Below, one piece after another: positions 35,676 through 63,799 of a DNA stretch of 64,000 nucleotides (positions are counted from its first letter, which is position 1; each line of letters begins with the position of its first letter). The position numbers and the translations under genes were made by a program. A model generated the notes under the pieces. That model worked only from the letters and a program-made list of their open reading frames with translations. It was not told the origin of the DNA and ran no database searches. The stretch is from Octopus vulgaris (taxonomy: Eukaryota): positions 53,568,001 to 53,632,000 of the forward strand of contig OX597815.1 of NCBI GenBank assembly GCA_951406725.2, written 5' to 3'.

Positions 35676-36157
35676 CAATTTTAAATAGATAGCTGGAGAG
35701 CGGCTGACAAAGGAGGCCACTAGAATGATAGAATCAGCATCATGAAGAATCAGTGTAGTAGTTAATTACACGCATACATAGGTATTTTATCATTTTCGTT
35801 ATGACTGTTATTAAAATCTTTCGTCGCATACTAAAATTGTCACAGGTGTTCAGTAATCCTATCTCTGTATAGATATAGTACAAATCTATTCCATCTCAAT
35901 CACAGATTTTTTAATTATTTTTTTTAACTAAACAGTTTGAAACTTCGAATACTGGGAGAATTTCTCAAGTAGGATATGGTTTACTCTGAACGTTTTTGAG
36001 AAAATTTCGTATTTTAGAAGTTATTTCGTGTTAAAGTTGTCGTATTTGGGTAATTTCAACCAATCAACGATGTGTGTTCGGTTGAAGAAAGCTACTGCTA
36101 CTGCTGTTTGCGATGGTAATCGAAGAGAAACAACTTCCGGGTCATCTCTACTAAATG

Positions 36158-36383
36158 TTTTTCCGTCCTTGTTTCGTATACATTCAAAGCTTTTTTCCAA
36201 GGAAGCTAGTGCTCTTAGCTTAGTTTTTCCTTGGGGCTGGCCAGATTAGAGCAATCTCAAGATTAATCAGCCGAAATTGCGAGGATGATCCGGTTCTTGA
36301 CTGAAGATTGAAGGCTTCGAATGACCCGTTCGTGTTTTTTGTATCGTCTTCTGAATGTTTTGCGTTCTTGTCCCATTTTGTAT
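36158..36383 (+). mobile_element. Short repeat ending in (TA)n carrying permuted HHR family 4 (36235-36320)
   Basis: gcaat-C-tcaaga ... cagcc-GAA-attgc ... tcttga-CTGAAGA; homologous copies at 54330-54693, 54890-55098, 55170-55850 and a minus-strand end at 62332-62390. Confidence 0.8.
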
Positions 36384-36721
36384 TATATATATATATATAT
36401 ATATATATGCAATGTGAATGTATATGCGTGCAGGCATGTATGCATATAAATGCAGAGTTGTATACTATATAAATACTTATACGTGTGTGTACGTGTGTGT
36501 TTGTATACACACACACATACATACACAAATACATACGCAGGGACTGAGTAACCGTCAAATTATCTGAGAAACAAATGGGATATTCATTGTCGTAGAATGA
36601 TTAGGTAATACAACTAAAACATATATAGTCCAGACCGATGGCCAAACAATCCGTGGTGTGCGTGTGTGTGTGTGCGTGCATCCGTGTGCTTGTCTGCGTG
36701 TGCGCGTGCATGTTTGTATGC

Positions 36722-53092: not shown

Positions 53093-54037
53093 TTATAATT
53101 GAGGGCTAAAGAGGGTTATTCTAAAGCCAATACACTGATTTATCCACTTATAATCCACTTGTTACAGGAAAATTGAACTGAAAGCGGGCAACTAACCTTT
53201 AGAAAATTTAAATTTCGTTATCTCTATATTGAATCAATTTCGGAATTAATCCTATAAAGGGATACATTCTTCTTCAGTAGAGCTTACGAGAGAATATAAA
53301 TAAAATACTCACATGTGATCATGGAAAAAGCAGAAGCTAAAAACATAACTACATTTAAGTACATCATTTATATCTAAAAATAAAAATTCCCTGGTCAGTT
53401 TCAGAACAACGTGTTGACCTTTCGCCGCTACATATTGTAACAAGTGGATTATAAGTGGATAAATCAGTGTATTGGCTTTAGAATAACCCTCTTTAGCCCT
53501 TAATTATAAGATGTTTATACTTCAACCGTAAAGGATTTTTTTAATATACTGCCACGCTTTTTGATGGAATCCTTTTCTGTAGAGAAAGGGACTTCATCCT
53601 ATATTGTTAGTAGTAAACTTACTGCTTGTTACAAGGGGACCGGTAACCATTACAATATGTAGCGGCGAAAGGTCAACACGTTGTTCTGAAACTGACCAAG
53701 GAATTTTTATTTCTAGATATAAATGATGTACTTAAATGTAGTTATGTTTTTAGCTTCTGCTTTTTCCATGATCACATGTGAGTATTTTATTTAAGCTCTA
53801 CTGAAGAAGAATGTATCCTTTATAGGATTAATTCCGAAATTGATTCAATATAGAGATAACGAAATTTAAATTTTCTGAAGGTTAGTTGCCCGCTTTCAGT
53901 TCAATTTTCCTGTAACATGTGGATTATAAGTGGATAAATCAGTGTATTGGCTTTAGAATAACCCTCTTTAGCCCTTAATTATAAGATGTTTATACTTCAA
54001 CCGTAAAGGTTTTTTTAATATACTGCCACGCTTTTTG
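53093..54037. mobile_element. Young HHR-bearing element: 475 bp unit in 1.25 tandem copies plus inverted arm
   Basis: 53444-53562 repeats at 53919-54037; 53093-53440 is the near-identical reverse complement of about 53649-53983; HHR on plus 53796-53855 ctcta-CTGAAGA-agaat..attcc-GAA-attga t tcaat-A-tagag and mirror copy at 53222-53282. Confidence 0.9.
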
Positions 54038-54302: not shown

Positions 54303-54857
54303 CTATATATATATGTTGCTTGTTTTGATTATAATCACCCCACGAATTTATTTGGATAACACCATACAGAATTCTGGTGCAGCTAAATTAAGTACCTTAT
54401 TCATTTGTACGTATTTTTGTACACTTATTCGTGTTATCATTATTGTTTTTACGTATTTTTGTATTTTTATTTGTGTAACATCGTCCGGTTTTCCGTCCTT
54501 GTTTGTATACATTCGAGGCTTTCTTCCAAGGAATCTAATGCGCTTGGCTTAGATTTTCCTTTGGGGCTGGCCAGATCGGAGCAATCTCAAGATTAATCAG
54601 CCGAAATTGCGAGGATGATCCGGTTCTTGACTGAAGATAGACGATACAAAAAAGTCAGACGATACAAAAAAGGACAGGGAAAAACAATGAGTGAGGAACC
54701 GTTTTAGAAAGTCGAAAGGCACTAACCTTTGGTAAGAGATTTCACAAAATGTGTGTGGCTTTTGCTTTTATAGAAGTGCAAGCAGGTGTTATTACACACC
54801 GACACCTACACCCCCCACACACATATATATATGTACCAATATATATATGTGTGTGTT

Positions 54858-54888
<31 letters not shown>

Positions 54889-55137
54889 ATGGGTTAGATT
54901 TTATTGTTACCGTCCAGATAAGAGCAGTCTCGAGAGTAACAGGCCGAAACTGCAAAGACGATCTGGTACTCAACTGAAGATTGAAAGCTCCGAAATTACC
55001 CGTCATTGTTTTTCCCTGTCCTTTTTTGTATCGTCTAACTGTCCGAATGTTTTGTTGTCGCCTGTTACGTTCTTGTTCAATTTTTTTATATACTTATAGC
55101 GGCGTACGTACACTTTTGGTCTCCTGTATGTAAGTAC

Positions 55138-55168
<31 letters not shown>

Positions 55169-55845
55169 ATCTGTGCGACTCTTCTACTCTTTCTTTCAGC
55201 CCCTTTCACACTCTTCGTTTCTTTCACTTCTACTTTTCTCGCTCGTACCCTCTCTCAAATTTCTTGACCTTTCCTTCACTCTCAGCACTTTCCTTCCTCC
55301 TTTGAATCATTCTGTCCCTTTCCTTTTTTCTCTATTTCTCGTCCTTCCCTAATTCTTCAATCCCTCTACCACTACCTCTCTCCTCTCCTTCCACGTGATC
55401 GGTGTTCGTTCAAGCCTGACCTTTCTTTCTTGGTTCGACTACCATTCGTGTAGCGCCTCTTATATTCCTTCCTATGACTTTTATCTTGTATATTCCTGCC
55501 GTAAGGTTTCACTTCCATACACGCCAGCTTAATCCAATTTATCCTTAGTCGAAAGACACCTGTTGTTAATGTCCTGTTGTTTGTATTTGTAACTGTGTAC
55601 AATTTCACCGTCTTTCTTTCGTCCTTATTTTCGCATACATTCGCTTGCTTAGATTTTCTTGGGGTCGGCGAGATTAGAGCAGTCACGAGAGTAACTGGCC
55701 AAAACTGCAAAGACGATCTGGTATTCGGCTGAAAAGTGAAAGCACCGAATGACCCGCTCTTGTTTTTCCCTGTCCTTTTTTGTATCGTCTAACTGTCTGA
55801 ATGTTTTGTTGTCGCTTGTTATGTTCTTGTTCCATTTTTTGTTTT

Positions 55846-55881
<36 letters not shown>

Positions 55882-62327: not shown

Positions 62328-63799
62328 ATGAAATACAAAATGGGACATGAACGCAAAACAACTGGACAACTAAGTAATACAAAAGGGAACATATATATAT
62401 ATACAAGCATACATATGCTCAAACATGCTCTTATTATCCTCTCTTAATAAAATACTATATTTCGATGCAGGGGTGTAGGGCATTAAGCGGAATTTGAACG
62501 CAAAGAGACAGAACTGAACTACGCGAGGATATTTTTCTTGTGATTTTTTTGTTTCATCTGTTCTGTATGTTTATAATATATAACATAAGTAGAAAACTAA
62601 TAGAACGGAGGAATGGAACTGTAAATGAAACCCTTAAGTCGACCTCAGTGTTTTACAAGTACAAAAAAAGGACAATGAGTTCATTGGAACGATCCCCTCA
62701 CACACAGTGTTTCTGCGTGCGTGTGTGGGCATACAGAAACACATAATATTTCTGCATGCCTGTGTGAGTATGTGTGTGTGTGCGTGCACATACGCACACA
62801 CACACACGCACATATGTCCACGTGCGTATGTATGTGTGAACTTGCGTGTGTCTGTATATACAGTAGGAAGAAAAGAAACTTATAGTGCGAAAGAATGACA
62901 AGGTGGTCGTTTGAATTGATGAAACGATCAAACAAATCTACTTGTGGAAGGAATGTAAAGAAGGAAAGAAAGAAACCAAGAGAAAGTTAGTCGACGGAAT
63001 GGTAGCGAATTTTCACCAAACAATTACTTCTTAAGAATATTATTGGATATCGAGAAAAATGTGAAAGGGAAAGAAAACAAGGACGTAAAAGAAATAAGCA
63101 TAGAAATTATTGAAGAAAAATCTTTTTCCTTCGATAAGAATAGATCTTGACGGAAAATTAATTAGTAATGTAATGCATTGAGTCCGGAATATAGTTAAAT
63201 GGATCTGGTGCCGCAGTTGGTGCAACCAGGCCTATCATTTCAACTTTTACAACTAACAAAAATAGCGAAGCTACAAGAGACTCCGTTTCTTTTCCTGTCC
63301 ATTCTATTTTCACTGGCAACGGACCAACTACCATGGATATAGCAACTTGTTTCAAGAAATACAACGAAGAAATGACGCTTATTGAAGTGTCTTTTCAGCT
63401 GACCGTCAGCGCTGAGATTCCTGCCATTATTGCCTTCAAACCGATATGTTTAGCGCTCTTTATCTCTCTAACCTTCCGCCTTTTTCTGTATTCCCCATTT
63501 CTCAACTTTCTTTATGCTGCCCCTTATACACACTTCCTTTCTTTTCTTTATTGCTTCATTGCATTCGAGCGCATCAGTTTAGATGAGATCATTATTCGGA
63601 AAAGTTATTTTCGTTTCCAGGTTTCCGCCGGGTACCCAGGCATAGAAAAACATATCAAAGCTTTGTCATCTCCGAGGTCGAATATCTTCCTCTTTTTCGA
63701 AACTGTTTGTTTGAGTAGACAGGTTTAATAAATAGAGTAAAATGAAATATGCACAACAGAAGAGTGTTCATCAGTGGAAAGTTTACGGAGAGTCAGAAG

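What the first reader, a model, noticed from the sequence alone, without database searches (positions are those of the whole stretch)
54330..55850. Cluster of three permuted-HHR repeats showing compensatory changes within one family
Seen: the 54565 copy (almost identical to 36235) has gcaat/attgc and tcaag/cttga; the 54915 and 55663 copies have gcagt/actgc and a cgag strand opposite ctcaa or ttcgg. Both partners of stem III change together, and ggctg/cagcc becomes ggtcg/tggcc. The first copy is followed by an inverted piece of the family's own 3' end (54639-54693). Inference: selection on the RNA structure while subfamilies diverged, and Penelope-style inverted termini point to a Penelope-like parent.
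Basis: partly seen in the sequence, partly recalled or inferred. Interest (0 to 1): 0.7.

Follow-up and report, generated by a model that had tools for sequence, protein, structure and literature searches.

The report
Four-strand hammerhead of Naiad-type repeats
Thousands of copies of a short non-coding jumping repeat in this animal genome carry all the catalytic letters of a hammerhead RNA in a rearranged, four-strand layout that also ends many Naiad retrotransposons reported to lack one, and truncated copies pile up right at the predicted cut site, so the RNA likely cuts itself in cells, though cutting is untested.

Summary
The observation mostly holds. The motif has every hammerhead core base in the non-circular order S-G-C, with one difference from published type SGC: the 5' strand of stem II lies upstream of the whole motif instead of after CUGANGA. 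Across five subfamilies (184 copies) stems I, II and III each swap both partners, the core is invariant and N7 varies. The two B copies are one partial-tandem insertion, and the inverted piece derives from it. The repeat is a non-coding 650-750 nt Penelope-like element; no coding parent was found. The same fold, in unrelated sequence, ends Naiad elements in this genome and 10 of 53 published Naiad consensus ends (four phyla, read by eye). 5' ends of copies pile up just 3' of the predicted cut (33 events versus 2 upstream); in Naiad copies this test was inconclusive. No cleavage assay exists. The scan noted this fold before in other genomes; I found no paper describing it.

The parts
54405..54638 (+). 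Subfamily A copy, 5'-truncated (start approximate) and cut off just after the CUGAAGA core
54565..54570 (+). Stem II 5' strand (GGCTGG), upstream of the motif, pairs with 54597-54602
54571..54577 (+). Fourth helix P4 5' strand, pairs with 54617-54623; predicted stem I-II interaction helix
54581..54591 (+). Block S: stem III 3' strand, AUC triplet (predicted cut after 54586), stem I 5' strand
54597..54610 (+). Block G: stem II 3' strand, GAAA (G12 at 54603), stem III 5' strand
54626..54637 (+). Stem I 3' strand and CUGAAGA core (54631-54637), not followed by a conserved stem II strand
54639..54690 (-). Inverted, partly duplicated piece of the B-subfamily 3' region; shares a private variant with the 54915 copy
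54894..55088 (+). Subfamily B, 5'-truncated upstream copy (pseudo-LTR) of a partial tandem; predicted cut after 54929; upstream stem II strand decayed
55097..55136 (+). About 40-nt tail seen at tandem junctions in many copies, ending in a GTAAGT splice-donor-like word (splicing not shown)
55169..55849 (+). Full B monomer: non-coding pyrimidine-rich body, motif at 55663-55735 (core broken at G12 and G8), 3' end followed by (TA)n
36157..36384 (+). Intact subfamily A copy; motif 36235-36307, predicted cut after 36256; best window copy for an assay

Best explanation
The repeats are copies of a non-coding Penelope-like retroelement whose 3' end holds all hammerhead core bases in a four-strand, pseudoknotted layout, and this RNA likely cuts itself after the UC/UA triplet. 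Shown by sequence and covariation: strand order II-5', P4-5', [III-3', cut site, I-5'], [II-3', GAAA, III-5'], P4-3', [I-3', CUGANGA]. This equals type SGC with its two ends joined and the chain reopened between A9 and position 10.1. Inferred: stem II stacks on the core without a backbone link to A9, helped by P4 and probably by a closing helix P0 between the bases after CUGANGA and a strand upstream of stem II (register unresolved in this family). Inferred: cutting sets the 5' end of the element RNA in read-through or tandem transcripts, so reverse transcription from the fixed 3' end often runs off at or just short of the cut. Inferred: uncut or re-ligated RNA gives the longer copies and partial tandems, and a Naiad-type RT/endonuclease acting in trans inserts them at (TA)n.
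For: Core invariant and N7 variable in 5 of 5 subfamily consensuses from 184 copies; double swaps in stems I, II and III, three one-sided changes that keep pairing. With family C, 9 of 24 pairs show double changes, 92.6% of cells pair, slid controls 14-43%. A Naiad element of unrelated sequence has the same helices; its motif has 202 exact pattern matches, control 0, lies downstream of Naiad RT on the same strand in 11 of 30 RT loci, and one natural copy runs endonuclease piece, RT pieces, motif. By eye, 10 of 53 published Naiad consensus ends (7 distinct sequences; ctenophore, cnidarians, crustacean, cephalopods) have the same layout. 5' ends: 33 events in -16..0 versus 2 in -34..-17 among 92 copies, p about 7e-9; 17 versus 1 in the 11 nt either side of the cut where no helix remains to block RT. 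In an independent 3'-anchored sample of 92 the rate is 0.013 per nt against 0.004 downstream (p = 0.003) and 0.0016 upstream.
Against: No cleavage assay. Published alignments allow at most 1-2 inserted bases between CUGANGA and the adjacent stems (PMC10085705), so a detached stem II may not be catalytic. Two pairs break at subfamily level: an A.C in P4 of subfamily A and a C.A in one P0 register. About 60% of sampled A copies run through the site. Only 2-3 starts fall exactly at -16; most are 2-16 nt downstream and many join by TA microhomology. In 75 Naiad copies the pile-up was not seen (3 in -13..-6 plus 2 ambiguous at -15). No autonomous element sharing this family's sequence was found. 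Pfam support for the decayed Naiad pieces is below cut-off. Shuffle controls ignore relatedness, and much of the P4 signal comes from one family-C sequence.
Confidence: 0.72

Rival explanations
1. It is an ordinary type-SGC hammerhead with a 4-5 nt insertion after A9: stem II forms with the downstream GGCU, and the upstream strand is an alternative, perhaps inhibitory, pairing.
For: GGCU five bases after the core can make 4 pairs with AGCC in families A and C, and a weak 5-pair register exists in the Naiad copy tested.
Against: That register is broken at the first pair in 4 of 5 subfamily consensuses (AGCU or AACU), did not co-change, and is absent by eye in the coral, ctenophore, box jelly, hydrozoan, clam shrimp and squid Naiad ends. 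The upstream register is 6 of 6 in all five subfamilies with a double swap.
Confidence: 0.08
2. The fold is conserved as a non-catalytic RNA signal (RT binding, 3'-end formation or stability), derived from a hammerhead; the 5'-end pile-up reflects RT stalling at the pseudoknot plus TA microhomology.
For: Most copies pass through the site; many junctions use TA or AT microhomology; no pile-up in Naiad copies; the backbone break at A9 has no tested precedent that I found.
Against: All catalytic bases and the UH site are kept across four phyla while stems change freely. Stalling predicts excess within the 3' helix strands (+2..+55), where the rate is background, and cannot explain the sharp left edge at -16; AT dinucleotides exist upstream of the site too.
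Confidence: 0.15
3. The compensations are chance co-inheritance between two subfamilies of a neutral repeat (or a DNA transposon), with no RNA structure.
For: A versus B alone: 3 doubly changed pairs among 17 differences, permutation p = 0.047. Rfam has no match.
Against: Independent stem I swap, family C swaps, unrelated Naiad sequences with the same helices; fixed 3' and ragged 5' ends, tails and (TA)n targets fit retrotransposition, not a TIR element.
Confidence: 0.02

Closest known systems
Type-SGC hammerhead ribozymes (HRIMA-1 and SGC variants; Eckert et al. 2023, PMC10085705; read parts 2-6 of 8, supplement searched by terms)
   Same: Order S, G, C; short linker joining stem I 5' strand to stem II 3' strand; an extra helix joining the far sides of stems I and II; all core bases.
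   Different: Block C is split: the stem II 5' strand and interaction strand lie upstream. The paper assumes block C cannot be interrupted, and found SGC only in metatranscriptomes, none in genomes of known organisms. Here the motif sits in an animal retroelement.
Naiad Penelope-like elements (Craig et al. 2021, PMC8557442; read passages, section 6, supplement S1 sheet and 53 of 54 consensus ends)
   Same: 5' truncation, partial tandems, inverted 5' pieces, 30-40 bp tail, (TA)n targets; the same RNA fold at the 3' end of 10 consensus ends, five of which the authors flagged HHR_core or HHR_half_core.
   Different: This family has no ORF and no sequence similarity to the Naiad 3' end in this genome (0 of 180 windows). 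The paper reports that Naiads lack canonical hammerheads and does not describe this fold.
Animal non-LTR retrozymes as non-autonomous PLE derivatives (bioRxiv 10.64898/2026.07.22.740005; read abstract and passages)
   Same: Non-coding, hammerhead-bearing, PLE-dependent repeats related to pLTRs.
   Different: Retrozyme hammerheads are type I (recalled); here the monomer is 650-750 nt, mostly dispersed or in partial tandems, and circular RNA was not tested.
Hammerhead variants with an extra stem in the core (Weinberg et al. 2015, PMC4509812; not held, nothing read; cited in PMC13725137 for 'additional helices')
   Same: Possibly an extra helix entering the catalytic core.
   Different: Could not compare the position of the helix; as recalled, those variants keep a circular strand order.

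Membership tests
Hammerhead ribozyme | CUGANGA, GAAA and UH cleavage triplet | tested here: met
   Invariant in 5 of 5 subfamily consensuses, N7 varies; present in family C and Naiad copies. Broken in the 55663 copy.
Hammerhead ribozyme | Stems I, II and III abutting the core | tested here: met
   Double swaps in each stem.
Hammerhead ribozyme | Stem II 5' strand directly follows A9 | tested here: not met
   No pair between A9+1 and G12-1 in 4 of 4 copies tested; conserved partner is upstream.
Hammerhead ribozyme | Site-specific self-cleavage | not testable with these tools
   Indirect only: 5'-end pile-up with its left edge at the site in family A; inconclusive in Naiad copies.
Type-SGC hammerhead | 5'-to-3' order S, G, C with a short I-II linker | tested here: met
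   linker 5 nt in A and B against typically 3.
Type-SGC hammerhead | Helix joining the far sides of stems I and II | tested here: met
   P4, 7 pairs, 4 with double changes; one A.C in subfamily A.
Type-SGC hammerhead | Uninterrupted block C | tested here: not met
   As above; so it resembles SGC but is not filed as SGC.
Penelope-like element (non-autonomous) | 5' truncation, partial tandems, inverted 5' copies, 30-40 bp tail | tested here: met
   inverted pieces 12 of 92 versus 0 of 180; tail-like sequence 12 of 92; 8 of 10 neighbouring same-strand pairs are of one subfamily.
Penelope-like element (autonomous) | ORF with RT and GIY-YIG endonuclease | tested here: not met
   No such ORF in A, B or C monomers; no copy of the repeat in the 30 best GIY-YIG loci.
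Naiad clade | N-terminal GIY-YIG before RT | tested here: inconclusive
   Absent from this non-coding family; seen as decayed pieces in a sister element carrying the same fold, Pfam scores below cut-off.
Naiad clade | (TA)n insertion bias (frequent, not exclusive) | tested here: met
   83 of 92 copies; Neptune PLEs share this bias.
Naiad clade | Shared 3' sequence with an autonomous Naiad | tested here: not met
   0 of 180 windows from Naiad and GIY-YIG loci match; 2 of 30 Naiad RT loci hold a family copy, both upstream of RT.
Non-LTR retrozyme | Abundant circular RNA monomers from tandem copies | not testable with these tools
   Only contig-level runs were available.

The most novel reading that the evidence does not exclude
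A seventh natural hammerhead topology, in which the catalytic CUGANGA strand is disconnected from stem II, is the ribozyme of a branch of Naiad retroelements from ctenophores to cephalopods and of their non-coding parasites; it cuts element RNA in vivo and so fixes where many new insertions begin.
Probability: 0.62. Interest if true: 0.88.

Novelty: new variant of a known kind. Interest (0 to 1): 0.78.

Why it matters
It would break the stated rule that the CUGANGA block of a hammerhead cannot be interrupted, put non-circularly permuted hammerheads into animal genomes in thousands of copies, and explain part of the reported absence of hammerheads from Naiads. The 5'-end pile-up offers a genomic read-out of ribozyme cutting during Penelope-like retrotransposition, where the ribozyme's role is described as unclear (PMC8557442). 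A young family (copies 98-99% alike) gives ready substrates for an assay.

Tried and rejected
Rfam: no match at gathering score in the window and no hammerhead match at E up to 5 in four loci. C-terminal GIY-YIG PLEs with 781-aa frames as parent: no copy of the repeat in 30 loci; the ends I could read look like minimal type I motifs, by eye. Naiad RT loci as parent: the repeat occurs in 2 of 30, upstream of RT, read as separate insertions. ORF in the monomer: none credible. Nested MFE folding is uninformative for a multi-pseudoknot. Alternative pairing TTGGAGC with GCTYCGA: has an A.C in subfamily B1, no double swap. P0 register: AGCTT/AARCT breaks in 2 of 5 subfamilies; YTTTC/GAARR fits all five and C by eye but needs wobbles and a register shift; unresolved. 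Sequencing runs: no RNA holder listed, contigs only, no GT..AG joint at the tail among the 15 of 35 joints shown. 5'-end pile-up in Naiad copies: inconclusive. The automatic counts were discarded (truncated references; stops at internal mismatches); counts are and hand curation of the printouts. The family C array on C27 (period about 1325) repeats a whole partial-tandem insertion with its microsatellite, so it was not taken as a retrozyme array. Literature searches with no description of this fold; passages.

Full report
Observation. The 54565 and 36235 copies differ at 3 of 75 positions. The stem III change GCAAT/ATTGC to GCAGT/ACTGC is real. Other cited changes are decay in old copies: subfamily B has GGCCG/CGGCC and TCGAG/CTCGA, the 55663 copy has lost G12 and G8, and the 54915 copy has lost its upstream stem II strand. 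The two B copies form one partial tandem: truncated copy, 40-nt tail, (TA)n, full monomer. The inverted piece at 54639-54690 is B-type and shares a variant found in only 1 of 55 B copies, the 54915 copy, so it came from that insertion or a later local duplication.

The element. The genome is 2.8 Gb in about 30 large contigs and looks octopus-like by inference (Naiad_Ovul-like elements). A 35-letter core word has 1,890 exact matches and a 28-letter 3' word 2,311, controls 0. Copies share a fixed 3' end and ragged 5' ends. (TA)n follows the 3' end in 83 of 92 and a tail-like sequence in 12 of 92. Inverted family pieces lie within 600 nt upstream in 12 of 92 copies, against 0 of 180 control windows. 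These are the PLE hallmarks listed by Craig et al. (PMC8557442 section 6). Monomers of A, B and a young sister family C are 650-750 nt and non-coding. No coding parent was found in the 30 best GIY-YIG loci or 30 Naiad RT loci.

The fold. Blocks run S, G, C, the non-circular order of Eckert et al. (PMC10085705). But the base after A9 does not pair with the base before G12 in any of four copies tested; the conserved partner of that strand lies 33-39 nt upstream, followed by a strand that pairs just 5' of stem I (P4). This is type SGC with its ends joined and the chain reopened between A9 and 10.1, which that paper assumed could not happen. In 184 copies sorted into five subfamilies, the 10 core positions never change, N7 does, and stems I, II and III each show a double swap; the stem I swap separates from the other two in subfamily 4; three further changes keep pairing and two break it. 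A versus B alone is weak (p = 0.047). On ten natural sequences including family C and the four window copies, 9 of 24 pairs change on both sides, 0 of 500 shuffles reach this, and slid controls pair 14-43% against 92.6%; the shuffles ignore relatedness and family C is one row. A closing helix after CUGANGA is likely but has two candidate registers here.

Link to Naiads. While checking the Craig supplement I saw the same layout, in unrelated sequence, at the end of Naiad_Obim (noted, before consulting earlier findings). Reading the last 330-450 letters of 53 of 54 consensuses by eye, 10 fit: Bfor (stem I only 2 pairs), 3_Chem, Amil, Aacu, Anas, 2_Movir, EuTe, Obim, Ovul and Esco (stem II imperfect). 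That is 7 distinct sequences in four phyla; five were flagged HHR_core or HHR_half_core by the authors, who report that Naiads lack canonical hammerheads. The other 43 showed other motifs, none, or ends too long to see. In this genome the Naiad motif has 202 exact matches, lies downstream of Naiad RT in 11 of 30 loci, and one copy shows endonuclease piece, RT pieces and motif in order, though Pfam scores for the pieces are below cut-off. The window's family shares no detectable sequence with it, so descent from a Naiad is inferred from fold and anatomy.

Evidence on cutting. Following a lead from e1-8669002, I mapped 5' ends. In 92 copies from the first 90 listed places of 1,890, 34 copies (33 events; two are arms of one insertion) start in -16..0, where -16 is the first base after the predicted cut, 2 start in -34..-17 and none in -50..-35 (p about 7e-9). 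In -16..-6, where all helices are already unwound for an RT coming from the 3' end, there are 17 against 1 in the 11 nt upstream. Because that sample was anchored at G12, I drew a second of 92 copies anchored at the 3' end (first 90 places of 2,311; a few loci overlap the first sample): 13 starts in -16..+1 after dropping one copy with an internal insertion, a rate of 0.013 per nt against 0.004 in +2..+55 and 0.0016 in -70..-17. Against: about 60% of copies pass the site, few start exactly at -16, TA microhomology blurs junctions, and 75 Naiad copies show no pile-up in the short window available. Public runs were contigs only and say nothing on RNA ends.

Mechanism and verdict. Most likely (0.72) a self-cleaving four-strand hammerhead that defines the 5' end of element RNA, with uncut or re-ligated RNA giving longer copies and partial tandems, mobilised in trans by a Naiad-type protein. 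The fold is shown by covariation; cutting is supported only by insertion ends; the helper and any circular RNA are inferred. Rivals are an SGC form with a 5-nt insertion (0.08), a non-catalytic signal with RT stalling (0.15), and chance (0.02). It works like a hammerhead but fails the intact-block-C feature, so I do not file it as type SGC.

Novelty. Seven searches found no description. Passages of PMC3088659 show only 1-2 nt core insertions; the 2026 retrozyme preprint mentions Naiads only as a clade; PMC13725137 mentions variants with additional helices, citing Weinberg 2015, which was not held and could bear on the P0 claim. bioRxiv supplements were not available. The scan has noted this fold in other genomes (eight notes) and not in this one; those notes are not independent support. 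New variant of a known kind; interest 0.78.

Noticed in passing
L354-L383, e.g. L356:1490-1690; G000:C27:25601593-25613768: Family C: a young (98-99% identical top hits) non-coding sister of about 660 nt with the same fold and a homologous tail; a partial-tandem insertion of it is itself repeated in an array with period about 1325 nt.
   Followed up: partly
PMC8557442 supplement, Naiad consensus ends: By eye, other Naiads end in other ribozyme-like motifs: twister-like in several bivalves and cnidarians, and type I hammerheads with a long stem II in nematodes. Naiads may swap ribozymes rather than lack them. Not tested.
   Followed up: no
window 55407-55438 and 55522-55566: Two short blocks in the monomer body are far better conserved across copies than their flanks; the second holds a GTC-GAAA-GAC hairpin and is shared by A and B. 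Possibly a promoter or RT-binding signal.
   Followed up: no
L112, L117 and other places: A young PLE family with C-terminal GIY-YIG and many intact 781-aa frames; related ends show a minimal hammerhead with a U in place of C3 (by eye).
   Followed up: no
window 62332-62390, minus strand: A further short 3'-end fragment of the A-type family between microsatellites.
   Followed up: partly
window 53500-53560 and 53975-54035: A direct repeat of about 60 nt, roughly 475 nt apart, just upstream of the cluster.
   Followed up: no
window 55130-55135: GTAAGT at the end of the tail, where Penelope and Chlamys-3 have an intron spanning the pLTR-body boundary; no spliced joint seen in contig data.
   Followed up: partly
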